A program made the translations under genes and the position numbers. Below are positions 7,536 through 26,685 of a stretch of DNA of 26,685 nt, piece after piece. The DNA lies in the NCBI GenBank assembly GCA_022813865.1, contig JALDZX010000072.1, positions 62,001-88,685 of the forward strand. Reading direction: 5' to 3'. Source of the stretch: Xylographa opegraphella. Lineage: Eukaryota. A model generated the notes under the pieces. It did no database searches. It was not told the DNA's origin and saw nothing but the letters and a program-made list of their open reading frames with translations. How positions within the stretch are numbered: the first letter of the stretch is position 1; every line of letters starts with the position of its first letter.

Positions 7536-9309
7536 ATGTCTTCTTCTCAAAACACTCCTCTTGACCTTGCAAATGTCCAAGGTGATATCTTGTGGGGCTA
7601 TGTTGTTCTGCTGGCATTATACTCAGACTGATTCTGGATAGGGCCGGTCTCCCCAAGAAAAGCCAAAGCTACTATTTCTTTGAAATTGACGAACACCGCG
7701 TCCACAACTTTCGCAAGCAGCTTCTTCACCTAGTGCCTTTCATTACGACAACCGCCCAAGTCATAAGCGACAAGGCAAAGATTGTCACCGCAAAGAAGAC
7801 CGCTACCGATGGAAAAATCGCTCCTCCGATATTAGAAATCAGTGGAGTCAATATAGCTTTCACTCAGAAGGGACTACTAGAGGTTCAGTTCTACTGCTTC
7901 AAACACCATCATCGCCAAGCGTATCACTAAGTTCTTGTTTCTTTAGCTGGGAATCAACAACGAGAAGATCGGCGACACGGCCTTTGAAAATGGTATGCTG
8001 GCAAATGCGGCCGCTCTTGGCGATCCTGGCTCCACGTCGCCATCTGGTCCAGACTGGATTCCTGCATTTAAGCAGCACATACACGGCATGATTCTGGTAT
8101 CTGGCGAGAGTCCTAAGACAGTGCACGAGAAATTAGCGAAGGTAAAAGATATCTTCTCTGTTGGACGTCATGATGCCAGCATTCACGAAGTGAAACATAT
8201 TGGCGGAAATGTGCGTCCAGGAAAGGAGAAGGGCCATGAGCAGTTTGTACCACTCTTCCAGGCTCGAAAAAGACATAGCTATTAAAACAATACCATAGCT
8301 TTGGCTTCCTCGACGGCATCTCGCAGCCTGCGGTTCAGGGGTTTGATACCAATCCAAATCCAGGTCAGGGGACAGTACCACTAGGAACAATCCTCCTCGG
8401 TCGTGAGGGTGATACTGTCACGCGTCCTTCCTGGGCGCTTGATGGAAGTTTTATTAGCTTCCGATATCTCTTCCAACTGGTGCCAGAACTCAATGAATTT
8501 TTGAAAAACAATGCTATTCCAGGTGTACCTGTTAAGCAAGGCAGCGGGCTGCTGGGGGCTCGGCTTGTCGGACGATGGAAGAGTGGTATGTTCTTCTCCA
8601 CACATGGCCATGAGCCTTACCTGGAGCGAAACTTTGGTAACGATACGTAGGCGCACCGATCGATCTTACTCCAGAGCAGGACGATCCTGTCCTTGGCGCG
8701 GATCCGCTTCGTAACAACAATTTCAGCTACAATATTCTTAACGACCAGACAACGCAAGATCGATGCCCCTTCGTAGCGCACATCCGCAAGACTAATCCTC
8801 GGGGCGACCTTGAGACCCCACATCCTCCTGGTACGGCCCCAATCTCAACCGCAATTCACTGTATTATTCGCCGTGGGGTGCAGTTCGGACCCGAAGTCTC
8901 TGCGGACGAAGCGGCGTCCGGAAAAACCAAACACGGGCGTGGTCTACTATTCGCGGCTTACCAGAGCAATATCGGCAACGGCTTTGAATTCATTCAACAG
9001 TGTACGTACTTCTCCCTGTGGTCGTCGTACGGCTACTTCTTAACAATGCTTAGCCTGGGCGAATAATTCGGCTTTCCCCCCATTCAAGGGACCAATAACG
9101 CCAGGATGGGACCCATCATTGGTCAGATCGGTCCTGAGCAAGGTGTATTTGTTGAACCCACAGCACGTGTGATGTCAGGCACAGACCCTCACAGTCAGGC
9201 CACGACCCTTAATTTGACCGCGCAGTGGGTTGTGCCAAAGGGCGGAGAGTACTTTTTCTCACCTTCTATATCCGCCCTTAAGAATACCTTTGCTCTAGCA
9301 CAAGGATGA
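7536..9309 (+). CDS. Dye-decolorizing (DyP-type) heme peroxidase; 6 exons, introns 7592-7641, 7883-7946, 8243-8298, 8586-8650, 9002-9053
   Basis: The spliced product contains NVQGDILAGLPKK, GHEHFGFLDGISQP (GxxDG distal Asp), GRWKSGAPID, CPFVAHIRKTNPRGD (proximal His), RRGVQFGPE and GGEYFFSPSI. All introns are GT-AG and keep the frame. Confidence 0.93.
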
Positions 9310-11189
9310 TCGGAGCTGTGGAGGCATTCTATATGATGGTTTTCGAGGTGAATGAAATGTGGAGTGTTAGCTCTATTTTGGAAAACTTGGACTTGAAGTC
9401 GTGAGAGCAGCGTTCGTGGATTATCAGAGGTTATTTGGAACGTTATATGCATCAACAGTCACTTTGTATCCGAATGGCGGTATATGCCTATTGTTGCTGG
9501 TCCCTCAATATAAGCAAGCTTTTCTACAATTCTGTACTGGCTTTCTCGATGCGTCCAGATCAGCTACGGCCTCCATTATGTGCTAGCTTGGGCTACAAAC
9601 AGCAGCATTCATGTATACCCCGTTTCTCGTCTATCCTAGTCCCAGCATCCTTTCCGTGCGGAGAACCTTACAACATAGGTATGGAATGAAATCTTGTATT
9701 ATCTCGTTACAGCCCCATAACTCGAAGTATGAACCCGGGTCCAATCTAATAAGCGAATCACTTGCGCTTGAGCGACGGAAGTGCTGGTGTCTGATCGGAT
9801 GGAGGATTCAGAGTTGGTTTACGGATTCAACGGTGCCGCCTGTGCTGCCAAGGGTGAGAAAGAGTACTAGGATATGCTGTGTTTGGGTGTCGGCAGCGGA
9901 GATGGTGCCTCGTCGAGCTGACTGACTTGGGGTACTGGTAGAGGTGCTATCGAATGTATTGAGGGGTAGAGATATGAGGATGGGGAAATGGAGATATTGT
10001 GGGACAGATGATACCCGTCAGGGGAGTGAGAGGGATTGCATGTTTGGGTATTCGGGATAAGGCGGCGTATAATGGGATTTGTAGGCTTTGCAATTGGCGG
10101 TGGCAGCTACGTGCTGCGATTGCTATCATAATTTGACCTTGTGGAACATACGGACTTGGTACGAGGTGTAGTCAGTGATTGCCACGCTTGGGAACGGTGC
10201 CATCTCGATACTTCATGGGTGGTTAGCTGGACATGGTTGAGAAGGATTCAGTCCCCCACACCAGGTACTTCACTGATAATACAGAATTTGGGACACAAGC
10301 ATCTTTGTAATAGACCACTGTTGCTCGAGGTCTCATATCTAGCGGACATCAGATTCAAACTGTATCCTGTTTCCGCCATACGAAGTAACAGTACCAATTC
10401 ATGCGTTTCGTTGTGGTGGCTGGTGCATTTCCCTGATTCTGCACCCGCTCCCTGGGTTTAGGCGCCCCGAATAAAGAACTTGAGAACAGAGCCGTGTCAA
10501 ATATTCTTGGGGTACTTGTCTCTGGATTCGAGAGTATGGTCCGAGCTGAGAGGTGTGATCCTCTCCAATCATGGTCGGAATAAGGTCAGAGATGCCTTGC
10601 AGTCCTTTCCAAATAACTATGGTCAAGATCGCTCCTGCTGAATTTTCCACACATTTTACTCTTCATCCCGGTTCAGATTTTCTACTTTTGTTCTTACATG
10701 GGAGCTGCGCTGAAGCCTTCCGCGTTCATTAAATTAGAAATTCTGCGGTCTCTCGGACAGGAATATGGAAACCATACGAGGGTATCATTGCTTCTATGAT
10801 GCGCGCAGAGAAAGCTCGGCCCGGAGTGGAGGCTGCGGCTGAGGCTGTGACAGAGTCTGTGCTTTGCTTCACTATGATACCTCGCGTTTTGAGCGGATCG
10901 CGTTCTGAGAAGCCCTTTCGAACGCGTTTCATGGGTATATCTATCGAATAACTAAACAATTCAGTGGGGACTGATGATTTCTGTCTGCTGCCGTTCCCTG
11001 CACTTGCATGTGATTGCTATCGTTTCGAAACCCGCACAAGACTAAGGCAAACCGCATCTGATAGCACTCGGTGAAACCCGTGCCATCATCTTGGATGATG
11101 AAGCATGGGTGGGAGGCTAAGACATATCTCGGCCGTCGTCTCCTCTCCAACAAAAAGATGCCGTTGACGTTTATTTTATTTTTTAAGTT

Positions 11190-14028
11190 ATGCCAGACTC
11201 ACCGTTGGCTCAGTCTGTACCACGCAGGCCCGGAAAGCATTCACACTACCCGAGTCTTCCAATCGCCGACGAGTTCTGCAGCTCACAATGGAGTTCGCTG
11301 CTAACCCCACACGCTGCCACGGACTTCGATTACCAGAGCTCGTTTGACCCAGACGATAGCTCCTCCGTCCTTCATCCTTGCCCCTATACTGACACTGACG
11401 ACACTTCGACCCAGACGTTGCTCCGCTCCAGAAGTCACTCCTCATACGAACCGGTGCATGATGTGGCCAACCATGAAGGCCATGCCGAGCTGGATATTTC
11501 GACGGAACATGATGATGCGTATGGTCTGCAAAACGATCAGGAATCCTCATATAGGCTTTCTACTTTGAAGCAGCCTCCGGAGACAGGCACCTCAAAGCAA
11601 GTGTTGAGAACGGAGCTTTGGAAATCACGACCGTCGGCGTTGTCCCAATATCGGTTCGCGGTGGATGATGGGGGTTGGTGGTGGCATCAAATGTTGGTCG
11701 ATCGGAGTCTACGATTCATGGCAGCTCTCACGACTCTCTTTGCGCTCATGATGGTCATACTTTGCATCGTATACTTTGGGGACTTTGTTCATCGAGTCAA
11801 CGCAAACTCCACGTCAGTCGGTGGGATATCGGGTGAAAGTTGCTCGACGATGGAGAGTAGGAATATTGTATGGTTTCTGAGCACCTCTTGTTCTAGAGGA
11901 TCATGCCCATACTGAACTGATTATCTGTGGCTAGGCCCTCCACCTGTTCTTGAACATAGCTGCCACCATAACGCTTGGAATGAGCAACACATTCCAAACT
12001 ATCGTCTCGTCCCTCAAAGCTGATGAGCTTCGGTGGGCACTTTCAAAGTACGGCGATGCGAGAATTGGTACAAATAGTCCTTTCAACATCAACCGCAAAA
12101 AGACCGGGAAAGCAAGCTCGTGGTGCGCTTGGCTCCTGCTTGTCTCGACATCTTTTGTAAGCCCCGGGTCCAATCCAGTCAGGAGATGTCTGTGGTGGTG
12201 CTGATCGAAAAACAAGCCAATTCATTTCCTCATCAACTCTGTTTTTGGGCCTTCGTTCTATGTCACTCCACCAACTCATGTCATTTACAATCCCATACCT
12301 AGTATGAACTATTCTACTCGTACTACAGCTATGATGCAATATAGCAGTTTTCAGTTAGACACAAGCGATATAAGCTGTTGGTCAGCTTTCCGAGCCGGAG
12401 TCTATACTTATCCCTCGGATATGGACTACATGGCTGCAGGGGTTGTTTCAATAGATCCTTACTCGACACTTTCTCGCTCGTCAGTTACTGTCACATATTA
12501 TGACGCAAACTGCACGAAATACCGCAATACAACCCGAGATCTTCTTTCTCTTTACGACGAAATGAGTCCGGGTTACCAATTTTTTGTTGGCGACTGCTGG
12601 AATGCAAAGATGGTCGCATGCGAGCTTGGCGGGAACAATACACAAAGTTGCAGACTCAATATCAGAATGTCTGCTGCGTTAACCCTGGCTGGCTGTCTTG
12701 TACTCAAAGCCGGATATATGATATTTCTTAACTTCAGGGCTCGACGGAAGGTGAAGACACGATGTCTTACGTATGGAGATGTTATTGTGGCCTCCGTCCT
12801 CGATCCCAGACTACGCATCTGGAACGAGTGCTTGGTCAATGCCCAAGAAGGTCACCGGCACAAAGTCAGCCATACCTGCCATAAACACTGCAGCGACTCG
12901 GAACCATCAAAGACTGGTGACAATATTGGCCACTGCCAAAAGTGTAAAATGTTTAATACTATCGATAAAGCGGCCGACTTGATTCATCCTGTCATTGCGA
13001 TCAAATACAAGTCGTCACTGATATCGAATCTTGGCGTAACTGCCGTTTCCCAGATGATGATGCTTACGCTCTGCTCTCTTACCATGGTAGGAGTCTCTAT
13101 CCTGCTCGCCATTGTTTTTGCAGGTGCGGCAATTACACGCAACGATGCCTGTCCCAAATTCCCAAACAACCCGATGTGCGAGATTCCACTCGGAACGTAT
13201 CTCAATGATAAATTTGGGGGCTTTGGTGGTTTCAATACAAGTGTTAGCTTGGCCGCGCTTGCACCTGATAATCTTGGAAGTGAGTTCTTAGCATTCAGCA
13301 TTGCCAACGGCGCACAGTTTCTGTACTCATTACTGTACCTTCTCTTGATTTACAACGTCACTTTGATCAGTATGGAACACGATTGGGGTACATTGGAAAA
13401 ACGCCGCCAGAAGCTTCGATGCACCATCGTTAAGGGCGGTGGATTCGCACAGTCCTATTTACTCCAGCTACCAAAACGCGTGCTCTTTCCCGCCATGGGC
13501 TTCAGCGCCTTGATGCATTGGTTGTTGGGTCAAGCTATCTCGACGATAGAGATCACATGGGCCGATCCAGTAGCAAAAACAGCTCATACGCAGAATTTCG
13601 TACGTGGCGTGCCATGAACATTACGATTGACTTGCTAAAACGCTGCTTTCAACAGGTCGTGTACGCAGTCTATCCAATCTGGTTATCGACCGTACTCATG
13701 CTCGTCATGACAAGCGTTTGCTGGTGGGCGTTCACATACAGGCGCGAGGGCTTCATCCCGCAGCTGTACGGCTCGGTGCGGGCGTGCTGCTCCGCCACCA
13801 CGGAATTGGACTCCTTTGGCAAGGAAGGCGTGATGTGGGGTGATCGTAAGTGTTCAGCCGTGTTCGACCGTCGTTGGTTTTGTTTGCTCTAACTTCGACC
13901 CAGTCACCAAGCCGGATCCGCAGGATACAAGGTTTCGACACGCCGGTCTGTCGTCGGGCACTGTGGAGCAGATCGTACCTGGGGAGCTCTACTGCGGTCG
14001 GGACTCCCCGCATCTAAAAGTCTCATGA
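11190..14028 (+). CDS. Multi-pass membrane protein, DUF6536-like; 5 exons, introns 11868-11934, 12157-12216, 13600-13655, 13846-13903
   Basis: ORFs join in frame at GT-AG introns. Motifs ALHLFLNIAATITLGMSN, PIHFLINS, CLTYGDVIVAS, SYLLQLPKR, MHWLLGQAI and WGD..RHAGLS match the recalled fungal DUF6536 family. Several hydrophobic helices are present. Confidence 0.8.
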
Positions 14029-15656
14029 AACATGGAGGCATTCAAGACGCGGAGAACTTGGCTCGCTTATCGCTCAATCGCAACATCGTGCCTTCGCACC
14101 ATCCGTGATATGCCCTAAGCTGGTAGTAAACACGAGGCGTGGAAACAATCGAGGCTTTACGTCTCTACTGGGCATCAACATGCAGTTCAAACCTCTCGTC
14201 ATTCCTAGGTTGTTACATTCTCGAGAACTCCTCCCAAACCCGCGACTAGGGTCGGCACAAGCCTACGTCAATCGTCGCCGTCTCTCATACTACCCGACTC
14301 TGTAACGCCAAGAGACGTGCTTGCGTTCTGGTAGCCGATCACAATAGCAGCTACAGGGTATCGTGTTGCCAACACCCATAGTACGGACTCTCGAGGTGCA
14401 GAAATGGGGTAGTCAGCACGATGGTCAGGGTATCGTAGGAGATCGACGGGAATGCTCCGCACGCTGGTCTAGATTCAGGGTGGGAGAATATAAGAGTTAT
14501 GGGAAAGTTAGGCAAAGATGTTGGTTTTTCTGTCTTCTATATTGTACGTCTGCAATACTTGGAATTGGTTCAGCGAAAGGAGTCGGTTGTCACATTTGTC
14601 ACGTACTGGCTATTACGAGTCTGATTTTATATTACAGCCGCAATCGAGACTGTGCTCAAGGGATGGGTGGAAGAACAAAGCAAGAAAGGAAGGGTACATG
14701 TGCAGCATGAACGGGCTATCGATCAGGCAAGGCTACCCGTACGGCGGAGCGTTCGTCACTGCAACCGACTATCATTGATTTTCTGGCCTATCTTCTGCCT
14801 CGTTTTCGATCAGGTACTGTGCGACATCCGCATTAAGTGATAACTTCCTGATTAGGCGAGAGCAGCGGACAATAGATGTAAGTACACTAATATTAATTTA
14901 AGGGAGAAGATATCTTTTTCCCGATAGGTTCTATGTAGCTGCTGAATATCGGCCCATGCTCCAGGTTTCCAACAATGGCTTTGGGCGCTGATTCCTACCG
15001 ATAGAGGATAGGAGTGTACCAACGTTGCTATCGTGTGCAGACAAATAGCAAAGGCAGCGGATCTGTAAGGTCGGAGGAACATACTGGAGGTCGTTAGTCG
15101 AGTATGAGTCTGAGCGGTTTGTTGGGAATCGTCGAGGTCAGGTCCGGCCCATTGGAAATTGCCCTCCCGATGGTGAGGCTAAAAGGATGGGAGTCCTCCG
15201 GACAGGGTTCCAATCTTGGACTGTCGTAGCCATGATTGTCTTTAATCACCGCATCATCGATGTGATATCCTTGATGATCGAGTTATGAGACTTGCTATCG
15301 CTTCTCATGTACAGCCGTAGCCCATAAATATACGTATTTTATGTAACAGCCATAATTGGTCTAGCCGGTACTTCACTGGACCAGAAAATCCCCGGCTCGG
15401 GGTTAGTTATGGTACGAGTGAAGAAAGTGGCTTAGTCATGCTCTGTTTCAGAAGCTCACCGTGCGACTAAGCCCGGCCAGGTTAGTGCTTCATGTCGGAT
15501 GCGACGACCGAGGCACGTCAAAGATATCCGCGCAAATCACATGTGCAGGCCCCATAAAGCAGACAGAGCAATTCTCTCCACAATACGGAGTACGGAGTAA
15601 TGTAATAACCTACACTTGTCCGGAGTTCTTGAAAGTTCTTTGAAATCCACATCAAA

Positions 15657-16937
15657 ATGCCTTTCAATACTGTCCTAACGAGGCAGCTTGGCATCAAAGG
15701 TAAAGATCTCTAGCACTACCCTACGAAATCTCTGCTTACCATTACGCAGTTCCCGTTGTGCAAGGGGGCATGCAGTGGGTCTGAACCGCTTATGACCAGA
15801 GCAAGAGCGAAGCACTGATTTCAGCAGGTGGGCTATGCGGAATTGGCCAGCGCGGTAAGCAATGCTGGGGCACTTGGTATAGTATGTTGTCCTGCCCTCT
15901 GATGCTAGAGACTGGCTCAAAAGGTCTATCTAGCTCACCGCGCTCACTCAACCTACACCCGAAGACCTTCGGAAAGAGATCCGAAGATGTCGGACTATGA
16001 CCAAACAGCCGTTCGGCGTCAACCTTACTCTTCTACCTGCTCTGGTCCCTCCCGACTACCATGGATATGCAAAAGTCATAATCGAAGAAGGCATCAAGAT
16101 TGTAGAAACTGCGGGCAACAGTCCGGGGCCTGTTATCAAACAGTTCAAGGCTGCCAACTGTATTGTCCTACACAAATGCACTACGATTAGACACGCCCAA
16201 TCTGCGATCAAGCTCGGTGTCGACTTCTTGTCAATAGATGGCTTTGAGTGTGCTGGCCATGTAGGTGAATCGGACATTACAAACTTCATCCTTCTCAGCC
16301 GGGCCCGCCAATCACTCAAAGTACCATTCATAGCGTCTGGGGGCTTTGCGGACGGACAAGGACTTGCAGCCGCGTTGAGTCTGGGAGCCGAAGGCATCAA
16401 TATGGGCACACGATTCATGTGTACGATTGAAGCCCCAATACATCAGAACATAAAGGAAGAGATCGTCAGAGCTCAGGAGACCGACACGGAGCTAGTACTA
16501 AGAAGGTGGAAGAACACGTCCAGGCTCTACGCAAACAAGCCAGCCAAAGATGCTGTCAAGGTTGAAAAGGAGAGCGCGAGCGGAAAGTTTGAGGAGGTAG
16601 CCCCATTCGTCAGTGGCAAGCGAGGGCGACAAGTCTTTTTGAACGGAGACGTGGATTTCGGAGTTTGGACTGCGGGTCAGGTCATGGGTCTGATACATGG
16701 TAATGAAACATCACACGCGGCAATTCGATCTCTCGATGCTGATGTGCGAAATCAGATATACCATCTTGCGAAGAGCTTGTCAAGCGGATAGAACGTGAAG
16801 CCGAGGATACTATCCGGAAGGCTAGCTTTTTAATCATCGATAGCAGCTCTGATGCTGTATCAGCGACAGGTACGGTCGGTAAGAATACTAACAATCCCGG
16901 GGCAGAGATATGGGGTGTTGGCAAGAGCAAGCTGTAA
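15657..16937 (+). CDS. Nitronate monooxygenase / 2-nitropropane dioxygenase family flavoprotein with C-terminal SKL; introns 15700-15749, 15779-15827, 15882-15933, 16700-16755
   Basis: Motifs VPVVQGGMQWVGYAELASAVSNAGALG, PFGVNLT, DGFECAGH, PFIASGGFADG, GINMGTRF and AGQVMGLIHDIPSC. The last exon ends ...GKSKL-TAA. Confidence 0.93.
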
Positions 16938-17744
16938 TGCTAGGTTCGTGTAATATTACTGGTTCCTGCTTGGTGTCTGCCATCATTGTAGCATGAGTAC
17001 CTGTCAACATGTGCATCGGTTAACATGAATGAGTTATTCAACACGCGGTTTTCTCTCTTCAAAGTCCGGATGTCTTCTGAGCATATCATCTTTGAGCTTG
17101 TTGCGATCTTGCTGTGGCTTGTTTCTTTTCCTGTTGTCATAATGAAGAAATTCAGCTTCTCTCATGCTATGCCCGTCGATTCGTGGCTATCTCTTTCCTC
17201 TATTGGCTGGACCTACCACAGTTTAACCAATAACCTAGATGTGCTCTAAGCGCACCACCAAACAAACGTTGGCGGTCTTGCGCTTAATCCCCAACATATC
17301 GGTTTGTTCTTGAAGCCGTCTTCTCCTGTTTTCCATTATCTCTGTTTCAAATTTATAACCGATATCCAAAAGACGTTCCACTTCCCTATTGAAGACACGA
17401 ATCGGTCCCTCTTGAGCCTTTCGCGTTGACTCGCAAATGATCATATAGGAACTATATTTCAAGAATCTGATTTGCGCAGAGATACTAAAGTTACCGACTT
17501 TAATCTATCTCCATTAGTCTTGGTCAATCACTGCAACATCGCCCGATCTTGCAGTCTAAGCCGCTGGCAGTATTACCACGAAAGAGGGATGATTCTCTCC
17601 GATCGCCCCCCATCTCTTCAAATCTCTCGCCTGCTCAAAACTCCAAGCTCCTCCTCCCTCCTCCCCGTTCGCATACCACCTCCCCATCCAGTCTTCCACC
17701 CCCCCTCCCAATCATTAGTCAGCAAAACAGACTTCGAACTCACC

Positions 17745-17966
17745 TCACCTCCGCTCATAAACAATCACATACGGATCCCTCAAGATCTTATCCCTCGCCG
17801 CCCGAAACCTTGCCTTGCAGCTGGGGCAGAAGCCCTCTTGTTTCGTGGTCCGCTTGCCTTCGCCGCCACGGTGCGCGGGGAGGCCGAGGATGGAGAGGCA
17901 TAGGTGCAGTTTCCCGCGCACTTCGTGGCTGCAGGTGGTGTAGAGGGTCCAGTCACGGAGACACAT
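17745..17966 (-). CDS. Small Cys/His-motif protein (73 aa; possibly extended by a 3' intron 17693-17748), paralog A
   Basis: MCLRDWTLYTTCSHEVRGKLHLC...GFCPSC..FRAARDKILRDPY, with ACCAAC-ATG start context. Motif spacing is shared with the neighbouring ORF at 18438-18791. Confidence 0.6.
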   Translation of the reverse strand: MCLRDWTLYTTCSHEVRGKLHLCLSILGLPAHRGGEGKRTTKQEGFCPSCKARFRAARDKILRDPYVIVYERR

Positions 17967-18437
17967 GTTGGTAGGTGTGAGGGTGGTGGTGGGTGGGAAG
18001 TCGAGGGTGGGGGGATGGAAAAGGAGTTGCGGGGGGGGTGGGAGATGCTGGTGGGTGGGGGGATGGTCGAGGTCGAGGGGGAAGGGCCGGGACGAAGGAT
18101 GCTTGGCCATGGAAAGGGGGACGAAGTCGAAGGTGTGGGTGTAGGGATCGGCGGGTTGTGTCTCGGTACAGTGCGTTGGGGCTGGTAGAGGGTCGTTGAG
18201 GATAAGGACAGTGTTTCTTGGCATTGTGCGTTGTTACTGATCTCAAGCAGGCTGAGTACAATGGCATTGTTGTCTCATACTCGTGGTTTGCTTTACAGAT
18301 GGTACTGGATCACAAAAGAGGTACTTACATTTCTTCGCAAGGAGCACTGACGATTCCAGACACCTCCACCCCCTCCCCCCCCCTTTTTCCCCCCAAAAAA
18401 GAAGAAGAAAAAACTCACCTCTCACCCTCCCCCCTTC

Positions 18438-18791
18438 TCAAAGCGCAAAACACCGAAACCACTCCCCCCTCCTCCTCCACCCCATTTTCCACACCCGCCA
18501 CCACGCCCTCCTCCCCTCCCCCTCCCCCTCCACCGTCGCATACGGCGACACAAACGGCCGTTCCGGATAACGATACGCATACGGATCACTCAAAATGCGC
18601 GCGCGCGCGCGCAGGAAGGGGACATTATGCTCGAAGGCGCAGCTCGGGCAGCGGCCGGGGCGCGGCACGCGCTGCCGGTACACGCCGTCCTGCGGCGTGT
18701 GCTTCCAGAAGGGCAGGGGGAGGCATTTCTTCAGCGGGCCGGGGCTGTCGTGCCCGCATTGTTGGTGGTGGATCGTTTGTTGGATGCACAT
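18438..18791 (-). CDS. Small Cys/His-motif protein (117 aa), paralog B
   Basis: MCIQQTIHHQQCGHDSPGPLKKC...GRCPSC..FLRARARILSDPY, with CCAAAC-ATG start context. It aligns with paralog A. Confidence 0.6.
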   Translation of the reverse strand: MCIQQTIHHQQCGHDSPGPLKKCLPLPFWKHTPQDGVYRQRVPRPGRCPSCAFEHNVPFLRARARILSDPYAYRYPERPFVSPYATVEGEGEGRRAWWRVWKMGWRRRGEWFRCFAL

Positions 18792-18867
18792 GTTTGGTGG
18801 TTCGTGGTGTAGGGTTGTTGAGGGATGGGGGAGGGGGATGGGGGGGGGGGGGTTTAAGAGTGGGGAT

Positions 18868-18922
18868 GGGGGATAAGGGGATTGTGAAGGGGGATAAGGG
18901 GATTGTGGTGGGGGATAAGGGG
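18868..18922. repeat. 21-bp tandem repeat (GGGGGATAAGGGGATTGTGRW, ~2.6 copies) inside a G-tract-rich stretch
   Basis: Units at 18868-18888 and 18889-18909, with a partial unit at 18910-18922, read directly from the sequence. Confidence 0.85.
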
Positions 18923-19945
18923 GCGGGAGCGGCATTGTGTATGGGTGTGCTTGGTTCTTTGTGGTTTTGTGTGAGGGGACAAAGGGTGGGTAAGGGGGTT
19001 TGTGCTGCTGTGTGAAGACGGAATGGAACAAGGGGCGGACAATGGGAATTGTGAATTCCAAAAGGTCGGTATTGTTCCGCGTGCAGAGCACTGTTGTGGC
19101 CCGCTGACAAAGCGGAGCTGGAAGCACAGAGAGCTCACGGCTCGAAGTATGCATCGCTGAGCCTGTCATACAGGTTTCGCGCCGAGGCGCCGCGATATCT
19201 CGTTCCCTTCGATACTGGTATATCACCAGTATATATCGGCCCTCGAGAACGAAAACAAGAAAAGCGAGCCGCAGACGCCAGGATGCCACATCGCATGAGC
19301 GAAAACTCCGCTCAGGCCCGCCGAGCGTAAGAGTGCCAAGTTGATCATATGGGTCCTATAGCACGGAGATGACTTCCTGCTGCTTAAAGAGGAGGGGTAG
19401 ACACTACTACCTAGGCAGCTCGCCGCCGCACAAAAGTCCAGTGAATGAGAAGCACGCCTGCCGCGAGCAGAAGTCGTCCGCAGAACAAAGCCGGATGTCC
19501 GTAAGTGACAGCACGGAGCTCGGGTATTGGAGTTAGAGAAGAATCGGCGTGCAACCGGTGAGAATGTAGAGCAGGCGGGATGGAGGAGATGTCGGCTGAG
19601 CATTTGGAGATACTCGCTGTATAGAAGTTGGAACCGTAGGGCGGAGGAGGAAAAGGAATGGAGTGTGGAAAGATGCAGGAAAACAAGGAGAGTGAATGGT
19701 CGATATTGTATTGTAAGCGATGTATAGAATCTAGTTCCGCCGCCGCCGCCGCATGGACTATTTAGACTCAGTATAGCCCCTTCGAGGTATAGGGACACAG
19801 CATTGAATACCGGTCGAGAAATAAAAACACTTACATATGTAAACAGAAACTTATCGTCACCCTAATAACCACCCATCCACGGCTCCGCAATCCAAAAGCG
19901 CCCACCCCCTATCCATCAACTCCACACATCCATACCCAACAACTC

Positions 19946-21284
19946 TCACACCTCATATCGTAATCGGATACTTCCCCAACCCCCAACCTCAAACGCGACA
20001 ATCGTCGACGGAAAAGTATACAAGTCCGTAAACTCATGCGTCCGCCGGTCCCACACACTGCTGCGCCTCTGCCCATCGGGTCGAAATAACGGCGCCAGCG
20101 CTTGCTCCCCCTGTGCAGCGGCCAAGTCCGGCGTGTACCGCAACGCCGTGTATGTGGCGCCCGCAGGCGGCGATTTCTTCGACCGCCACGCCTCGAAGAT
20201 CTCGTCCACGGAGGCCTGCAGGGCGAGCAGGCATTGCTGGGCGTTGGCGGCGTCTACCTTGTCGAGCAGGCGCTTGTCCCCGTACGCGGTCCACGTGGTG
20301 CAGAAGCTGTTCTTGACCTGTAGCCCGATGGCGTTGTCTTCGTCGTGCATGAACTGGAGCCGGTGAGTATGATATTCCTAATGCTTAGGCTGGAAGATGT
20401 GATACCTTGGCGCAGATGTCAGCATCGCCGAGAAAATTGTGGAGGAAGCGCCGAGGTGTGCGGATGTGGCCTGCGGAGAAAGAGTCCTCGAGGAAATGGT
20501 CTGCGTGGGTATTCATGGCATATGCCAATGGGAGATCTTCCGGCTTACCGCCTTGAGCTACCTCCAATGCAGCAGTGTGGCCCGCGGTATAGGCCGTGTG
20601 CGCGTCCTCGCCGAAGTGGTCGTAATTGATACGAGCAAGTCCTAGATAGCCAGGAACGTCGAACGGACGAGTGATGGTGATTTCCTCAAAAGCCAATGTC
20701 TGATCGGATAAGCGGCTATATAGCACAGAAGGGTCAACTTTGGTATTCAAGGCCTGATTTATCGTATTGACCTCCAGCTGCAGCACCCCAAGGAGCTGTT
20801 CTGCTTCTCCAGGGTTTCGGGTCTTGTCGATCGCTAACCACTCCCATGCTGCTAAGAAACATCGAACCTGCTCGTCAAGACCCACGCCATCGCTGATAGG
20901 ATGCGCAGTCCCGTAGAAATCCCCACCGAGGCCGTTAATCTGCCCGTAGGTGACTTCGAGTCCGTTCGGCAGAGTGAACGGCTTCTCGTAAGCCAGATAA
21001 GATTTACCATCGCTCCACCGGAGAGTAAGAGCATCTCCAAGTTTGTGTTGCTCGCCGAATTCAAAGTCGACTCTGCCGTGCGCCGAACCATCGGTACCCT
21101 GAGCTTCCTTGACGATAGGGATAACACGAGGTGTCGAATGAAAGCCTGGAACCGAAGGTTTTCCACTGCTTTGGGAAGATCTCTCATCGGTAGCGTTGGA
21201 TCCTTTGTCCTGGCTGTATCGACGTTAGCAAGCACAGAAATATGTCCTGGGCGGGACGCATCACATCACGTCCTCGGTGGCCAT
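19946..21284 (-). CDS. Zn-dependent phosphatidylcholine-hydrolysing phospholipase C (Pseudomonas/Legionella PC-PLC-like); introns ~21214-21264 and 20354-20405
   Basis: One frame from ~21213 reads FEFGEQHKLGD, TYGQINGLGGDFYG, NYDHFG and AYAMNTHADHFLEDSFSAGHIRTPRR. After the intron (GTATCA..CAG) come FMHDEDNAIGLQV and WTAYGDKRL. The first exon and its donor site are uncertain. Confidence 0.8.
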
Positions 21285-22445
21285 GATAGCAATAGTACAA
21301 AGGGAAAAGCTGCGAATAGTCCGAGTTGGAGAAGACAATTGGACAAGTCAAGTATAAATAGATACTACAGCAGATGGTGCATCAACACGTATGGCACAGA
21401 GTAGATGTCCGCCTCTTAACATGAATGGTCATGGATTGACATCACATAGTGGTACAGGTGGTAGTCAGATGGTCAATCAGTAATAAAAGTCGGATAGGAA
21501 ACCACACGTGAGATAATTCTGCTTCTCATCCGATAAATTACAGAGGCAGAAATGAATGGTAAAGACGCATGAATCCTAGAGTAAGCTTCGGTGCTCAGCT
21601 CCTCTATGCTCAGCTCCCAGCAAGCACCACAGCGGGGTATCTTATCCTAGCCAAGAACCTCTGACAGCACGGCGTATAGAGTTCGTATTGTAAATAGAAG
21701 CGACCTACTCACAAAAAGTCGTTGCCATGACATATTGCTTATTGCTTCTTAGATTTTTACTGTCAGTCTACATTTGATGGATGGCGTCAGCTCCCTCGAG
21801 TAAATCTCGAGTTTGGGCATCTTGCCTTTACTAACGTCCCTCCCTGCGTAGCGAGACACCCTCCGTGCCGAGACAATTGAGGGGTACTTTGACTTTGAGC
21901 AACTCCAAAGCTTCGCACACGATGAGGTTCCCTATACTTCTATATATATAATGTGATATAGCTATTCATGAACATCTAAGACCTCTCCTACCTTAAAATT
22001 ACCTTAGCATTGTCACCTTCACGCGTGAGTTACAACGAACCTCCTTTTCGTGTATAATAGCGTACCTCTGCTCTAGCACCACTTATAAGCTCTTACCACT
22101 TACGACGTTTATAAAGGGTAGTACCCGACCCTAAAAGTCTTACAAGAGCACGGCAAATCATGATCAGCCTTGTGTTCGCTTGCAGCTCTTAAACTCATGC
22201 AAAATCGCCACGTTTATCGGTACCGCGGCTAGCGCCAAACAGCCCCGCGCATGCCATGTAATCATAACAGTGTAATTACTTGCAGTGGCTAATAGATCTA
22301 TGGCGCAGCCTTTCCCCTCGTGCGGGCAACTCGGAACACAACATCTAGCTGTCGGCAATAGTGCTTTAAAAGATTCTTTGACGAACTTGCAGAACTGTTT
22401 ACAACCAAATTATGGCTTCGTTTTAAAAATATATCCATTCCGTTA

Positions 22446-23346
22446 GCTCTAGTTCAGCGCTGGAACGCCTACATTGTTTCTGTACAATATCTTTTCTACA
22501 CGAAGATGCATACTTACGGTTTCGATGGCAGTTAGACCAGCATCTTTCGCGCCCCTCACTGCAACTGCGACTCTTCTCTGTCGTTTCTATCTTATCGCTT
22601 TGCGTACCGTAGTATAGGAAATCGACAAATCTACTGGCTTCTTTGTCTCACTTGGAGCAAAGGCGTTAGAGTCGAAAGTGGAACCGATTAAAAAGGCCCT
22701 AGATGAGCTCAACCTGAATGTGGGTGGATCCTTAGACAGCAGAAGTTGGAAGAAGACTACGGAACTGATTATAATCGGCATAAAGAATGAGATATTTCGA
22801 CGTTTACACCAGTATTTAGAAAAAGAAAATACATTCACCCTAGAGAGGTTGGATCAAATATAAGGACAGCAGGTCCCCCCTAATAGAAGCAGCACTTTGG
22901 GGACGAATCGAGAATGTCAAATATCTTCTGGAACATGGTGCAAATAGGAATCTTTGCGACATTCATGCCGTCAGGCTGCCGAACTTGCTGGGCTGTCCCT
23001 GCGAAATGACAAAGAGCGCTATCAGCGTTCCGGTGGAGAGGTTCAGGTGTACTGAGAAGTCACTTTCATTGCCAATCAAGCTGGGAGAGTGATCTTCAAA
23101 CTGCTAAAGGATTCGAAAGATCTTTCGAGTAGAGGAGTACCTACACATGATTAAGTATTTCAGGCACACTCACTCAAGAGGACAAATCGAGGAACTATTG
23201 AACTTATTGCACCGATCATAGAATTTTATGTTTCAAATGAGTGGAAGACTGTTGCGTCTCTACAGCGCCCATCAAATTACCCTTCAATAGCGGCCATAAG
23301 CGGCTGGAATCATGGAGAGACAAAGGTCACTGTATCGGGAAGAGAG
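22446..23346 (+). pseudogene. Degraded fungal Zn-knuckle + ankyrin + SsdA-like deaminase family gene (catalytic C-terminus missing)
   Basis: Manual translation across frames gives RWNAYIVSVQYLFYTKMHTYGFDGS*..RAPHC, VV*EIDKSTGFFV, the ankyrin SRSPLIEAALWGRIENVKYLLEHGAN, RNDKERYQRSGGEVQVY*E and EWKTVASLQRPSNYPSIAAISGWNHGETKVTVSGRE. Stops fall at 22533, 22615, 23053 and 23152, and there are frameshifts. The ankyrin is clear; the family call rests on recalled motifs. Confidence 0.7.
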
Positions 23347-23354
23347 GGATTAAA

Positions 23355-23503
23355 CAAGAAACTGAAGGAGCCGAATACATGGGTTAATGACAAGGGAAAT
23401 TCGATGAGACTGTTCTCGAAGAGGATATTAAGAAAATTGTGAACGAAAATGGATTCAAGAAAGATGAGCTTCTGAAAGATTACAGCTCCTCCCGATGCAA
23501 AGT
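23355..23503 (+). pseudogene. Fragment of a patatin-like phospholipase domain
   Basis: GKFDETVLEEDIKKIVNENGFKKDELLKDYSSSRCKV, followed by a GTACGT donor at 23504. It resembles the FD...LE..IK..........LL.D.....CKV segment of fungal patatin domains. No GxSxG or DGG motif is visible. Confidence 0.5.
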
Positions 23504-23595
23504 GTACGTCTTTCGGATTTTGCACCTAGAGTTCACTTACTAGTTGAAGTCTCATAGATTTGTGCGTGCGACAAGTTCTGATCGACTCTAGACAA

Positions 23596-26295
23596 TCATA
23601 CCGCCTCGTCTCCTTTCCATGAAGCTGCCTGCAGGGCGTTGCCGAAATGACCACCCTGAGCATTGATATCTGCCCCGTTGTTCAGCAGCAGCTTAACCAT
23701 CGCCTCGTGTCCTTCCGATGAAGCTGCCTGCAGGGCGTTTCCGAAATGACCACCCTGAGCATTAACATCTGCCTTCTCGTGGATGAGTACCTCTACTATC
23801 TTATCCAGGCCTACGCAAGAAGGAAAATCAGATCTGTCTCGTTCGCAAACACGTCGCGCCGCGCTTTCACAAAGAATACTGGATACCATGTCCAGAAAGA
23901 ACCCGATTTAGTACGACAAAGCTGGACTTCTTTGCTGAGTAGACTGATGTCAATCATATCTTGTCCCTTCTGAACGTGCTCTGCCCAATACTCAGCCGCA
24001 TACCGTATAAAAGTGAATTTATCTACCAATTGGCCAACTCGCTTTTCTATTACATACCAACTGAGGTTCGATAATCCCCACGATGGTTGAATCTGAAAGT
24101 CTTGTAAGCACAGAAAGAAAATGCATATTCTGGAAACAACTGCCTCGGCTAACACAGTATTGATCGGGCCCTGCCAGGAACTTACGCGATTGCTTAAGCT
24201 GAAGGTTGTTTGAGTTAAAAATTCTCGGGCTGTCTGATGAATTAGATATACTCGAGAATCGTAAACGCTTAGTAGGAGGCCGCAAAGGTCTTTTAAGCTC
24301 TCCTCAAAATGATCGTCAGATTCTACGTCCTCCTGGAAATCAGAGTAACGTTGGTAGTCTTCCTGTGTAAAAGCTAGTGCAACCTTAACCTCAGATACGG
24401 ACAGTGGCCTTTCCGCTGCAACAACAAGTTGAAGCAATAACTTTGCCTGTTCATAGTCTACGCTTTTGCTAAGCATCTTTTGATATGCTTCATTTATAGT
24501 TGGCGGTAATTCTTTGATTAAGTCTTTAATCTTCTTCTCTGTGCCACGTCCAGCAATGTTGTCTTTGATGAAGTCCAGTATCAGGTAGAGCCAGAGATAC
24601 GTTCGATTTTCTATACTCTGGAGGTGTTTAATAATTGCCTCTTGCACTGTCTTAGAGACTTTCGGGATATAATGTGGGACTTTTGCATCGATAACCAGGT
24701 TGATTTCTGCCGCGATAAGTGAAGCCTTCTCACTTCCGTCTAAACGAACGAATGCCGAGTTACCGCTCAGTAACCCGTACTGAGTATCGATATACCCATA
24801 TGGACGGCTTGTGATGAGTATCTTGAGTCTGCCTCCTGCTTTTTGGATTGCTTCACGGTCCGAGAAGTACTCAGTAATCTTTTGTACCGGTCTCTCGTGG
24901 TCCTGCTTCAAACACTCATCTAGAGCATCAATGATGCATATTACTTCGCCAACCATGGGATCCTCTAAAGTATTTCTAAAAACGTCCCAGAGCTCGTCAA
25001 ACATTGTAGAGAGTTTGGCTCCATGTGCCTCGAACTTCGTGATAGCGTGCACGGCCATGCCCTTTTGAGAAGGCTCTGTGTACAGTTGGTGGAGCATTGC
25101 TGCTATCGCATTCTCACATTTCTGCTGAGCCTCCTGCCCATCTTTGAAGAAGAAATAAAGTACGGATGCAGTCTTCGAAGTGGCTATCAGTCGGTCGTCG
25201 ATAAGATACCTTGTCAGTACTGACTTTCCACAGCCTGGACCGGCATAGACATGAAGCAATCGCGAATCTTTCGAGTCACGCCACTCACAAAACCTTTCAT
25301 CCTTAACAAACCATTCGCATGTCCCGATTACTCGCTGCGGGTTATTGTCCTTTTGTCTTTTGTAATCGCTTGACAAGCTCCGGACTAGCTCAATACGCTG
25401 AGAGTCTTGCTCCTTTGACAGTCTCTGTAACTTCTCTTGTCTGATATCGATAAGGGCTGCCAGAATCTGCGCAGAAACGTTGCACTGCTCGCTAAGCTGT
25501 AAGTACTGTTGGTTCCAACTTTCACGCCCTTTCTCCACATCAATAAGGGTGGTAAAGCGATCGCAACGCTCATCCCATTTGTCCACATCAGTCAAGAATG
25601 CCTCCCAGTCGTCCACTTTGGCCGCATTACGAAGGAAACGCTTGGTAGGATGCTTAGACAAATAGGTAAGCAAACGAGCCTGATACGTAAGGATAGAGCT
25701 ATATAGCTTGACGACAGTATCGTGGAAGGAAACATTAGTATTATCCAGGTAGAGCTCGTCCCATTCCATATAAAGTCCTATTAGAAAAGATACCCGGTCA
25801 AGGCCTTTCATCATGGTTTCGCTTTGTTCTTTCTGGTTGGGAACTAACTGTAAATAACAAGTAAGCCATACTGAACATTACTTAAGTACTCACAATCACT
25901 ACTCGTGGCACTAGCTATATATTAATAAAATAAGTTGAAAGCGGTCGTCTTACTGGTAGAAGAAAGGAGATACACGTCCAAGCTAATGCCGCATGAGGTT
26001 CCGAGCTCGATACTGCCTGTAAATAACATTGCGAATAGTCGATAAAGCTCACGATGTTCTGTCCGAGCTCGCGCAGCTTTAGAGACCTCCCCGCAAGCTT
26101 GATGGTCCACTGCTTGATCTGACGTTCCCGGAGTATCTTATCAATTAAGATTGTATTCTGCTCCGACAGTTGTCTTGCGTACTGGTTCAGGATATCTGCC
26201 TCTGCTTCGCTAAGTGCATCAAAGGCCCGCTTCCACAGAACCTTAGAGTCATGTGAAACAGACCTCTTGGGAGCCTGTCGTATACCTGTATACAT
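23596..26295 (-). pseudogene. Fungal NLR: NWD-NACHT-N-like N-terminus + NACHT NTPase + winged helix + ankyrin repeats; frameshift at ~23820 (pseudogene or truncated allele); intron 25848-25953
   Basis: Exon 1 has LWKRAFDAL...HAALAWTCISFLLP. The intron GTAAGA..TACAG joins it to the 667-aa ORF, which carries GTCEWF, Walker A AGPGCGKS, Walker B CIIDALDEC, ILITSRPY, TYLWLYL and VYLIHQTAREFL. That ORF stops at 23811, while the ankyrins (ADVNAQGGHFGNALQAAS x2) continue in another frame to 23596. Confidence 0.88.
23602..23773 (-). repeat. Near-identical 99-bp ankyrin-coding tandem repeat units
   Basis: 23602-23674 and 23701-23773 share CGCCTCGT..CCTT...ATGAAGCTGCCTGCAGGGCGTT.CCGAAATGACCACCCTGAGCATT.A.ATCTGCC at a 99-nt period. 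Confidence 0.9.
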
Positions 26296-26685
26296 TAAGT
26301 TGACATTTCAAGGATTAGAGTAGCTACTATAGTCATCCTATTTCGGCTCGCTTGGGTTTTCGCTTCGCGTGGATATCGTTTACAACACTATAACAGATAT
26401 CGAGGCATGTACATAGCCTTAGGTGTTGTAAAATTGAATTGGCGTTAGCTGACAGACCTGCGGCTGTGCGAAGCCGGTCATTTGCAGGCGCCCGGAAAAT
26501 ATAAAATCCGTCCCAGAACAGTAAGAGTTTTCCCGGCTCCGTGCACGGCCCGATGTTAATGCACACCCCCCCCAAACTTTCACCACCATCATTTTGTCGC
26601 AATATTTTAACAACTACTGTATTGTTTATTTTCACATTGATGTATCTTGTTCTATAGCTCAATGCGATAATTTCTAGCTAACCAT

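What the first reader, a model, noticed from the sequence alone, without database searches (positions are those of the whole stretch)
22446..23346. Hidden fossil of a fungal ankyrin / SsdA-like deaminase gene, invisible in the ORF track
Seen: stitching + frames gives an ordered set of pieces. These are W-N-x5-VQYLFYTKMHTYGF...RAPHC, then *EIDKSTGFFV, then a clear ankyrin (SPLIEAALWGRIENVKYLLEHGAN), then RNDKERYQRSGG..VY, then WKTVASLQR...AAISGWNHG...VSGRE. Knowledge (recalled, unverified): this order matches uncharacterised Pezizomycotina proteins with a CPFC..H.HGF knuckle, ankyrins and a C-terminal domain related to the ssDNA deaminase toxin SsdA (AAMSGW...SGRDW...HAEKQL). Inference: the gene breaks off just before the HAE catalytic motif, so a possibly mutagenic or toxic effector was disabled here. 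I know of no described function for this fungal family.
Basis: partly seen in the sequence, partly recalled or inferred. Interest (0 to 1): 0.75.

Follow-up and report, generated by a model that had tools for sequence, protein, structure and literature searches.

The report
Dead deaminase riding an NLR-carrying transposon
A broken gene for a likely DNA-mutating enzyme lies with an immune-receptor gene inside a small cut-and-paste-type transposon whose sister copies in this fungal genome also hold such receptor genes, and the same element has different neighbours in a related species, so these transposons likely carry fungal immune genes between sites and species.

Summary
The fossil is real. 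22412-23346 is a pseudogene of an intronless ascomycete knuckle-ankyrin-SsdA_C deaminase, with four stops, four indels and the last 110 residues (HAE, CxxC) missing. The family was already noted in silico (Iyer 2011); I found no test of it. Intact relatives keep SsdA's KT, SGW, HAE and CxxC residues, so they are likely ssDNA cytidine deaminases. The new part is the setting. The gene starts 580 bp inside a pogo/Fot1-type end (TA plus 42-bp terminal repeat, 21832-21875). Seven of eight such elements with visible interiors in this genome hold NLR genes, some as near-identical copies with different flanks. A related organism has the same element, with both ends, the large deletion and the truncation, but other flanking DNA. 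It is 94% alike against 85% for host genes. So the gene likely broke before the element moved, not here. An empty site and transposition are inferred, not shown. The scan earlier noted single, unproven pogo-cargo candidates in two other genomes.

The parts
21832..21875 (+). Left end of a pogo/Fot1-type element: TA followed by a 42-bp terminal repeat
   Evidence: 44 of 44 bases identical to the right end of the complete 5.85-kb element G000:C157:278420-284267 (L080), which has TA at both ends and a DDE_1/HTH_Tnp_Tc5 transposase gene. Run X2's copy starts exactly at 21832.
21876..22411 (+). Conserved subterminal leader of the element family, here running into the deaminase start
   Evidence: 68% identical over 476 nt to the left end of L080; related to L109, L110, L112, L120, L081 and L016 ends with the repeat removed, scores 78-244 against shuffle maxima of 45 or less; present upstream of the intact gene in L014.
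22412..23346 (+). Pseudogene of a knuckle-ankyrin-SsdA_C (DYW-like) deaminase, codons 1-383 of about 493; KT and SGW residues remain, HAE and CxxC are gone
23347..23537 (+). Fragment of a patatin-like gene that stands in place of the deaminase's 3' end
   Evidence: 80% identical to P0193, whose match begins at 23347. P0193 matches an own-genome patatin locus at E 5e-6 and Pfam Patatin only at E 0.12, so the assignment is indirect.
23596..26307 (-). NLR gene (NACHT_N, NACHT/NPHP3_N, winged helix, two ankyrin units), convergent with the deaminase and itself broken: the ankyrin part is out of frame with the main reading frame
   Evidence: Pfam; 99-bp repeat pair; runs X2 and X3 each have one more base at 23826; frames.
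26381..26524 (.). Segment shared with the far end of L014; in run X2 the record holding it goes on into an inverted copy of the terminal repeat
   Evidence: 87% over 144 nt to L014:3372-3514; joint 21875-26524 on opposite strands, 48 letters on the short side, distance not given.
26522..26685 (.). End of a second, unrelated multicopy repeat inserted at a TA; the contig ends inside it, so the element's right end is not in this assembly
   Evidence: 18 other matches in G000, all beginning at or within five bases of this boundary; same start after a different flank in L083; searches for the right end failed.

Best explanation
The stretch is a dead ankyrin-deaminase gene inside a pogo/Fot1-type element with no transposase gene in the part seen (21832 to beyond 26524) that also holds an NLR gene, and the element likely moved as one unit after the gene had lost its catalytic half. 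Shown: the gene, its breaks, the element's left end, the family of sister elements with NLR cargo, and a copy with both ends and other flanks in a related organism. Inferred: a DDE transposase of the family, acting in trans on the terminal repeats, cut and pasted the unit into TA sites. Also inferred: an exchange of the element's middle replaced the deaminase's 3' end with a patatin fragment and the NLR, since L014 has the same outer parts around an intact deaminase and two other genes. The dead gene then decayed by C-to-T changes with a mild CpA bias. The element is closer between the two organisms than host genes are, which likely reflects gene flow after they split. Predicted for the intact protein: a cytoplasmic or nuclear zinc-dependent cytidine deaminase of single-stranded DNA, held or targeted by its ankyrin and knuckle domains, most likely a cell-death or anti-parasite effector like its NLR co-passengers (about 0.55 for ssDNA, 0.4 for the defence role).
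For: Element ends. The end pattern gave 22 matches in G000 against 1 for the reversed control. Sister elements: L080 is complete, with HET, an AAA-type NTPase domain and TPR beside a DDE_1 transposase. L109 has both ends 8.05 kb apart with a TPR gene and DDE_1; L110/L111 have DDE_1, HeLo, NB-ARC and TPR; L112 has HET-NACHT-ANK; L114/L116 have NACHT. Recent copies: L114 and L116 are 99.96% identical over 2202 nt including the NACHT gene, with different flanks; L081 and L082 share the same 518-nt end with different flanks. Run X2 (organism B): record 9 matches 21832-23704 in 1899 nt and then goes on in other DNA; record 11 matches 23725-26524 and joins an inverted terminal repeat; the window's host flank lies on a third record. 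Listed pieces: element 267 differences in 4607 nt (94.2% alike), host 396 in 2684 (85.2%). Decay: 59 of 89 window-private changes are C>T or G>A; CpA sites 25 of 114 against 34 of 306, P=0.007. dN/dS is 0.55 for the window against L014 and 0.19-0.32 among intact relatives. Catalytic residues in 62 aligned relatives: K350 59, T351 55, S368 61, G369 62, W370 57, H417 62, E419 62, C462 61, C465 61. A profile of 12 fungal C-terminal domains finds SsdA first in the PDB, E 1.8e-11, and plant DYW domains only at E 0.42. SGW is described as unique to the DNA-targeting BaDTF2 members (PMC7901873, passages), and K289, T290, S300 and W302 bind ssDNA in SsdA (PMC12494967, passages). None of 43 full-length rows has a hydrophobic N-terminal run.
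Against: The right end and the second TA are missing from this assembly. In X2 the element is split over two records at the ankyrin repeats. The DDE genes of L080, L109 and L110 are each split over several reading frames, and no intact one was found. X2 is one run from the same study as the probable source of this DNA. The host comparison rests on one locus and 2.7 kb. L109's cargo is enclosed by a further 99-nt inverted repeat, so it may be a nested element. Only 4 of 10 distinct full-length fungal deaminase loci (L014, L015, L016, L022) show pogo pieces nearby, with no background control; L025, L027 and L030 show none, and L017, L018 and L021 are contigs under 4 kb. The position matching SsdA Arg336 is Gln in 37 of 62 rows and Arg or Lys in 16. 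No activity or expression was measured.
Confidence: 0.7

Rival explanations
1. One reading: a resident toxic or mutagenic gene was switched off at this locus by cutting it before the active site.
For: The catalytic half is indeed missing, and a second remnant at G000:C101:108352-108639 has lost its start codon and everything after about codon 47, so no intact copy was found in this genome.
Against: The 191-nt deletion and the 3' junction are shared with organism B's copy, which has other flanks. The junction is a fusion to a patatin fragment inside a mobile element. The neighbouring NLR is broken too. One search had no positive control, and the assembly has gaps.
Confidence: 0.08
2. The genes were not moved as cargo. 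This is an accessory patch where pogo copies insert often, and a chromosomal rearrangement near the left end explains the different flank in organism B.
For: No empty site was read; the right end is not assembled here; a second repeat has inserted at 26522; fungal NLRs often lie in repeat-rich regions (own knowledge).
Against: X2's match starts at the first base of the TA-repeat end and its other record reaches an inverted repeat. L080 is a complete element in TA sites around an NLR gene. L114 and L116 share end plus NACHT gene at 99.96% with different flanks.
Confidence: 0.12
3. On function only: the intact protein edits RNA (C-to-U), as Iyer et al. 2011 raised for ascomycete ankyrin-DYW proteins, or edits a neighbour's mRNA as in the OLD-ZAO system.
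For: It belongs to the DYW-like clade, whose plant members edit RNA (PMC3239186, passages). L016 has a C2H2 zinc-finger gene next to its copy and an OTT_1508 deaminase 7 kb away.
Against: It keeps SGW and lacks a DYW-type tail in 62 of 62 rows. Only 4 of 43 N-termini have net charge of +3 or more, a crude test for a mitochondrial presequence. The zinc-finger neighbour had no match in the other fetched loci searched. SsdA has only residual activity on RNA (PMC7901873, passages).
Confidence: 0.2
4. On function only: the intact gene is a selfish tool of the element (a poison that penalises loss, or a mutator that diversifies cargo) rather than a host defence.
For: It sits directly behind the element's conserved leader in the window and in L014. 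Broken copies are common (window, L005, L016, L020).
Against: No constant partner or antidote gene was seen among the loci scanned. Intact relatives at 75-80% nt identity are under purifying selection, and several lie with no pogo piece nearby. The window's own changes show no TpC or strand bias (P=0.23 and 0.40).
Confidence: 0.15

Closest known systems
Ascomycete ankyrin-fused DYW-like deaminases (Iyer et al. 2011, PMC3239186; passages and Table 1 text read, supplement not available)
   Same: Ankyrins plus HxEK...CxxC deaminase with a long insert, in Pezizomycotina (named members in Cladophialophora, Venturia, Microdochium, Pyrenochaeta).
   Different: The window copy is a pseudogene. The passages read do not mention the N-terminal C-x2-C-x3-H-x-H knuckle or a link to transposons, and they raise organellar mRNA editing as a possibility, which the SGW motif and the N-termini do not favour.
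SsdA / BaDTF2 bacterial ssDNA deaminase toxin (PMC7901873, PMC12494967; passages read; PDB 7JTU, 9C63)
   Same: KT, SGW, HAE and CxxC residues; best PDB match of the fungal domain profile (E 1.8e-11).
   Different: The fungal proteins have knuckle and ankyrin domains instead of a secretion-linked N-terminus, His-to-Cys spacing of 43-155 residues against 21 in SsdA, mostly Gln at the Arg336 position, and no immunity gene identified.
pogo family, Fot1 subfamily of Tc1/mariner (PMC7325037; passages read)
   Same: TA target, short terminal inverted repeats, HTH + DDE_1 transposase in sister copies.
   Different: Elements here are 4.7-8 kb and hold whole or near-whole NLR and deaminase genes; no transposase gene was found in the part of the window's copy that is assembled.
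ToxhAT (PMC6737239; passages read)
   Same: A TIR-bounded fungal element that carries host-type genes, among them a patatin-TPR NLR, and moved between species.
   Different: ToxhAT is one 14.3-kb element with 74-bp repeats and a hAT-like transposase. Here there is a multi-copy pogo-type family with a different NLR in most copies.
Starships (PMC9156397, PMC11162782; passages read)
   Same: Fungal mobile elements whose cargo includes NLRs and patatin-like genes, with cargo turnover.
   Different: Starships use a tyrosine recombinase (DUF3435) and span tens to hundreds of kb. No DUF3435 gene was found among the window ORFs scanned; L016's copy does have one 6 kb away.
OLD-ZAO antiviral editing module of Neurospora (PMC12754623; passages read)
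   Same: A fungal deaminase of bacterial-toxin ancestry with a defence role.
   Different: OLD is an OTT_1508-like A-to-I mRNA editor with a fixed zinc-finger partner. This family is SsdA_C with ankyrins and shows no fixed partner.

Membership tests
Ascomycete ankyrin-DYW-like deaminases (Iyer 2011) | Ankyrin repeats fused to the deaminase | tested here: met
   Pfam Ank over cut-off in the window piece and in 8 of 9 relatives scanned.
Ascomycete ankyrin-DYW-like deaminases (Iyer 2011) | HxEK motif and CxxC | tested here: not met
   Absent from the window copy, which is cut at codon 383. Met in intact relatives: H and E 62 of 62, K 60, both Cys 61. The window copy is a dead member by descent.
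Ascomycete ankyrin-DYW-like deaminases (Iyer 2011) | Large insert in the catalytic domain | tested here: met
   In relatives only: His-to-Cys spacing 43-155, median 52, n=61.
Ascomycete ankyrin-DYW-like deaminases (Iyer 2011) | Asp at the end of strand 4 | tested here: inconclusive
   Asp in 22 of 62 rows at the column I took for this position; strand numbering not confirmed by a structure.
BaDTF2 / SsdA-like | SGW motif | tested here: met
   Present in the window; S 61, G 62, W 57 of 62 relatives.
BaDTF2 / SsdA-like | ssDNA-binding Lys289, Thr290 and Arg336 | tested here: inconclusive
   K 59 and T 55 of 62 at the positions I matched by motif; the Arg336 position is Gln 37, Arg 12, His 7, Lys 4.
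BaDTF2 / SsdA-like | Bacterial secreted toxin with an immunity gene | tested here: not met
   Fungal gene; no hydrophobic N-terminal run in 43 of 43 rows; no constant neighbour. It may work like SsdA without being a BaDTF2 toxin.
BaDTF2 / SsdA-like | C-to-U activity on ssDNA | not testable with these tools
   Needs an assay.
pogo/Fot1 DNA transposon | Terminal inverted repeats at both ends | tested here: inconclusive
   Left end present; right end not in G000 but joined to the right part in run X2. Both ends present in sisters L080 and L109.
pogo/Fot1 DNA transposon | TA target duplication | tested here: inconclusive
   TA at the left end here; TA at both ends of L080 and L109; the right TA of the window's copy was not seen.
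pogo/Fot1 DNA transposon | HTH + DDE_1 transposase | tested here: not met
   No match in the window, so this copy is non-autonomous as far as it is assembled. Met, in split reading frames, in L080, L109 and L110/L111.
pogo/Fot1 DNA transposon | Copies at different sites | tested here: met
   Different left flank in X2; L114 vs L116 and L081 vs L082.
pogo/Fot1 DNA transposon | Excision and reinsertion observed | not testable with these tools
   Needs an empty-site survey or a transposition assay.
Starship | DUF3435 captain as first gene | tested here: not met
   The first gene inside the end is the deaminase; no DUF3435 among the window ORFs scanned.
Repeat-induced point mutation (RIP) | C-to-T changes concentrated at CpA on both strands | tested here: inconclusive
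   CpA 25 of 114 against 34 of 306, P=0.007, no strand bias, but TpA/ApT is only 0.81 and other contexts are also hit: mild RIP or ordinary mutation bias.

The most novel reading that the evidence does not exclude
A pogo/Fot1 lineage works as a small mobile immune cassette in filamentous fungi. Conserved ends carry exchangeable cargo (whole NLR receptors with different effector domains, and an ankyrin-gated ssDNA deaminase) to new sites and across species boundaries, giving fungi a DDE-based route, apart from Starships, to spread and reshuffle non-self recognition genes and an APOBEC-like DNA deaminase.
Probability: 0.45. Interest if true: 0.8.

Novelty: new variant of a known kind. Interest (0 to 1): 0.6.

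Why it matters
How fungal NLR repertoires turn over and move is largely open, and eukaryotic elements under 10 kb are said to carry mostly gene fragments (PMC11162782, passage read). A multi-copy pogo-type family with whole NLR cargo, near-identical copies at different sites and a cross-species copy would be a compact system in which this can be tested. It also points to intact, purifying-selected fungal relatives of SsdA (for example L014) as candidate eukaryotic ssDNA deaminases. The pseudogene by itself is ordinary.

Tried and rejected
Self-mutagenesis by the deaminase: rejected as unsupported, with no TpC bias (23 of 134 vs 36 of 287, P=0.23) and no strand bias. An intact paralogue in G000: not found with P0006 (12 matches: 4 window pieces, one 46-codon remnant, 7 ankyrins) or with PF24120 (0, but the controls also gave 0). 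Introns as the cause of the gaps: rejected, because relatives are single open frames and the window lacks sequence rather than having extra. The element's right end in G000: two searches failed. Terminal repeats around relatives L015, L016-L018, L021, L022, L025, L027 and L030: no paired ends; L016 has one family end only. The host organisms of L014-L016 could not be compared with this genome, so transfer beyond organism B is untested. Structure: the AlphaFold model of P0006 from 19 rows had mean pLDDT 50.5, confident only over the ankyrins; I did not use it for a fold search, and no deeper model was obtained. Direct tests of the 50-residue fragment for patatin were weak (Pfam none; atlas 0.84; own-genome patatins E 0.91). 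No RNA holder was listed. In X2 the stretch 21273-21831 has little cover, which proves nothing alone; run X3 gave only short, low-depth pieces and was not used, except for the extra base at 23826. The codon classes printed were in the wrong frame and were redone. The protein counts are dominated by ankyrin proteins and do not give the family's size; I picked 44 rows by eye (342-596 aa, matches reaching beyond the ankyrins) from the best 150.

Full report
Observation. The window is fungal DNA with ordinary genes on the left (succinate dehydrogenase membrane subunit, DyP peroxidase, nitronate monooxygenase). The last piece, read with X at its stops, found 19 proteins among 594 candidates, all with Pfam PF24120 (SsdA_C) and 17 with ankyrin families. 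The closest, P0006, maps onto 22425-23367 in four collinear pieces of 63-80% identity. A metagenome scan gave 47 loci; L014 holds an intact, intronless gene that is 88.7% identical in DNA. Against it the window copy starts at 22412, has stops at 22533, 22615, 23053 and 23152, one extra base at 22421, deletions of 23, 191 and 1 nt after 22607, 22856 and 22966, and ends after codon 383 at 23346. The catalytic HAE and CxxC are absent from the whole window. Two knuckle cysteines and one histidine are also replaced.

Decay. Of 89 changes private to the window at 880 sites where L014 and L016 agree, 59 are C>T or G>A; L014 has 9 private changes at 800 sites and L016 has 28 at 819. CpA sites are hit about twice as often as other cytosines (25 of 114 vs 34 of 306, P=0.007), on both strands. 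Private codon changes are 50 replacement, 22 silent and 4 stops. dN/dS is 0.55 for the window against L014, 0.77 for L016 (also broken) and 0.19-0.32 among six pairs of L014, L015, L017 and L018. So the family is under purifying selection and this copy is not. A second remnant at G000:C101 covers only the leader and about 47 codons.

The protein family. In 62 aligned relatives (44 picked by eye from the best 150 rows, the rest) the residues K350, T351, S368-G369-W370, D406, H417, E419, C462 and C465 are kept in 55 to 62 rows, and the N-terminal C-x2-C-x3-H-x-H knuckle in 49-50 rows, with gaps in the others. A profile of 12 fungal C-terminal domains finds SsdA as the best solved structure (E 1.8e-11), and plant DYW domains at E 0.42. 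De Moraes et al. (PMC7901873, passages) call SGW unique to the DNA-targeting BaDTF2 group. Yin et al. (PMC12494967, passages; author name recalled) show that K289, T290, S300, W302 and R336 contact ssDNA. The fungal proteins keep the first four by motif match, but mostly have Gln at the R336 position. None of 62 ends in a DYW-type tail, none of 43 full-length rows has a hydrophobic N-terminal run, and 4 of 43 have a net charge of +3 or more before the knuckle. This favours an intracellular ssDNA cytidine deaminase over a secreted toxin or an organellar RNA editor, but it is a prediction. Iyer et al. 2011 (PMC3239186, passages; supplement not available) already list ascomycete DYW-like deaminases fused to ankyrins, and databases name members accordingly. 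Four searches (listings and abstract starts seen) and passage searches in PMC12494967 and the 175-enzyme screen 10.1101/2023.06.29.547047 (no occurrence of 'fung' in either main text) turned up no test of a fungal member. Supplements that I could not see, and subscription papers, may hold one.

The setting. A DNA search of 21400-23600 in the own genome showed that 21832-21895 recurs, twice as an inverted pair 5.85 kb apart on contig C157. That element (L080) has TA at both ends, repeats of which one is identical to window 21832-21875, a split HTH_Tnp_Tc5/DDE_1 transposase gene on one strand, and a HET, NTPase and TPR gene on the other. These are the marks of the pogo/Fot1 group (PMC7325037, passages). 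The window shares L080's subterminal leader at 68% over 476 nt, and the deaminase begins directly after it. The end pattern has 22 matches in G000 against 1 for the reversed control. I looked at 20; one (C171:23301) is not an element end, and most others run into contig ends. Eight elements show more than 1.5 kb inside an end: the window, L080, L109, L110, L112, L113, L114 and L116. Seven hold NLR-type domains: NACHT-ANK here; HET-NTPase-TPR in L080; TPR in L109; HeLo and TPR in L110, with NB-ARC in its sister L111; HET-NACHT-ANK in L112; NACHT in L114, and in L116 by 99.96% identity. L113 is an interrupted L114-type copy that I did not scan. L114 and L116 share 2202 nt but have different flanks, as do L081 and L082 over 518 nt. 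The ends fall into two related types. L109's cargo lies within a further 99-nt inverted repeat and may be a nested element.

What replaced the catalytic half. From 23347 the sequence matches P0193 (65% over 17 and 80% over 49 residues), which in turn matches an own-genome patatin locus at E 5e-6. It is therefore probably a patatin fragment. Then comes the convergent NLR gene, whose ankyrin part is out of frame. L014 shares the leader (22114 onward) and the segment 26381-26524 with the window, but between them it has the whole deaminase and two other reading units, one with a weak Uma2-like lead. L020 has one of these behind its deaminase too. I infer an exchange of the element's middle part.

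A second organism. Run X2 (organism B, same study as the probable source run X1) was laid on 15500-26685. Record 8 holds the host genes left of the element in three pieces, with the stretches between them replaced by other sequence. Record 9 (33.6 kb) matches 21832-23704 in 1899 nt, starting at the first base of the TA end, and continues in DNA that the listed pieces do not place on the window's flank. Record 11 (23.5 kb) matches 23725-26342 and 26409-26524 and joins an inverted copy of the terminal repeat. Because record 9 is only 26 nt longer than the window stretch and crosses the 23346 junction, it shares the 191-nt deletion and the truncation, while it lacks the 23-nt deletion. The main lesions therefore predate the separation of the two copies. 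The listed pieces are 94.2% alike for the element (267 differences in 4607 nt) and 85.2% for host DNA (396 in 2684), although the element includes a pseudogene and non-coding leader. Long records with 4-9% differences are not carry-over of the window's own DNA. The simplest reading is movement of the unit and gene flow after the hosts split. Limits: one run, one host locus, an element split over two records, piece and difference tables that were cut, and no empty site read through.

Other relatives. Of 10 distinct full-length fungal loci (L014, L015, L016, L017, L018, L021, L022, L025, L027, L030; duplicates L023, L026 and L028 set aside), four have pogo pieces near the gene: L014 (leader and far segment), L016 (a family end 5 kb downstream next to a SesA/NB-ARC gene, plus part of the leader), L015 (a transposase fragment 400 nt upstream) and L022 (a DDE_1 frame ending 745 nt before the deaminase frame). 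No paired ends were found around them, and I have no background rate. The family is thus often, not always, near pogo DNA.

Mechanism. Shown: the gene, its breaks, the left end, sister elements with NLR cargo, and the copy with other flanks. Inferred: cut-and-paste by a family transposase in trans, cargo exchange behind conserved ends, loss of the catalytic half before the move, and decay by C-to-T changes afterwards. Predicted: the intact protein deaminates cytosine in ssDNA and serves as a cell-death or anti-parasite effector under control of its ankyrin and knuckle domains. The defence role rests on the company it keeps and on the precedent of OLD-ZAO (PMC12754623, passages), not on a test.

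Comparison and novelty. Cargo-carrying TIR elements are known in fungi (ToxhAT, 14.3 kb, with a patatin-TPR NLR; PMC6737239, passages), and Starships carry NLRs and patatins (PMC9156397 and PMC11162782, passages). Five searches (listings and abstract starts seen) showed no paper describing a pogo/Fot1 family with NLR cargo. The library lacks most subscription papers, and I did not see Starship cargo supplements. Two earlier notes of this scan describe single pogo-cargo candidates in other genomes, both left unproven; I had written the hypothesis down before reading them. I rate the system a new variant of a known kind. The pseudogene alone would score about 0.25; with the element family and the cross-species copy I give 0.6.

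Noticed in passing
G000:C157:278420-284267 (L080:2421-8268): Complete 5.85-kb pogo-type element with TA at both ends, a HET-NTPase-TPR gene and a transposase gene interrupted by a tandem 15-bp repeat run and frame breaks.
   Followed up: yes
G000:C2:489170-497219 (L109:671-8720): 8.05-kb element with degenerate ends; inside, a 99-nt 96% inverted repeat (1303-1401 / 5787-5885) encloses a TPR-type NLR gene and a second gene without a Pfam hit, suggesting a nested element.
   Followed up: partly
G000:C178:198394 and C231:2202 (L114, L116): Two copies of an element end plus NACHT gene, 99.96% identical over 2202 nt, with different flanks; L113 is an interrupted third copy at 92%.
   Followed up: yes
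G000:C198:1-6169 and C159:1-5025 (L110, L111): Two sister elements, 99.2% alike over transposase and HeLo fragment but 91.6% over the NB-ARC-TPR gene.
   Followed up: partly
G000:C123:3216 (L112:717-4302): Family end followed by a 988-codon open HET-NACHT-ANK frame that runs to the contig end.
   Followed up: partly
G000:C101:108352-108639 (L005): Second deaminase remnant (part of the leader and about 47 codons, start codon lost) abutting the 3' end of a 1178-codon methyltransferase / FAD-binding / phosphomevalonate kinase / phosphoribosyltransferase frame; ferric reductase genes lie nearby.
   Followed up: partly
L016:1141-20664: Another broken copy of the deaminase lies among an OTT_1508-like deaminase, a C2H2 zinc-finger gene, a SesA/NB-ARC gene, a pogo-family end (15207, minus), DUF7587, a DUF3435 fragment and a cytosine methyltransferase fragment: a Starship-like region.
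   Followed up: partly
window 26522-26685: End of a different multicopy repeat inserted at a TA, with 18 other matches in the genome, many at contig ends; class not determined.
   Followed up: partly
window 23596-23907: The NLR has only two 99-bp ankyrin units and is one base short at 23826 compared with runs X2 and X3; in X2 the assembly breaks at these repeats, which may mean a longer array there.
   Followed up: partly
window 19946-21224: A minus-strand gene in at least two frames (20385-21224 and 19946-20377) with no Pfam hit, conserved at 84% in organism B.
   Followed up: no
window 11187-13892: Multi-exon membrane-protein-like gene (470-codon frame 12205-13617) with no convincing Pfam hit.
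   Followed up: no
window 7586-9309: DyP-type peroxidase gene in several exons.
   Followed up: no
window 22607 and 22856: Both larger deletions in the pseudogene have 3-4 nt of similar sequence at their two ends in the alignment with L014, as expected of microhomology-mediated repair; judged by eye.
   Followed up: no
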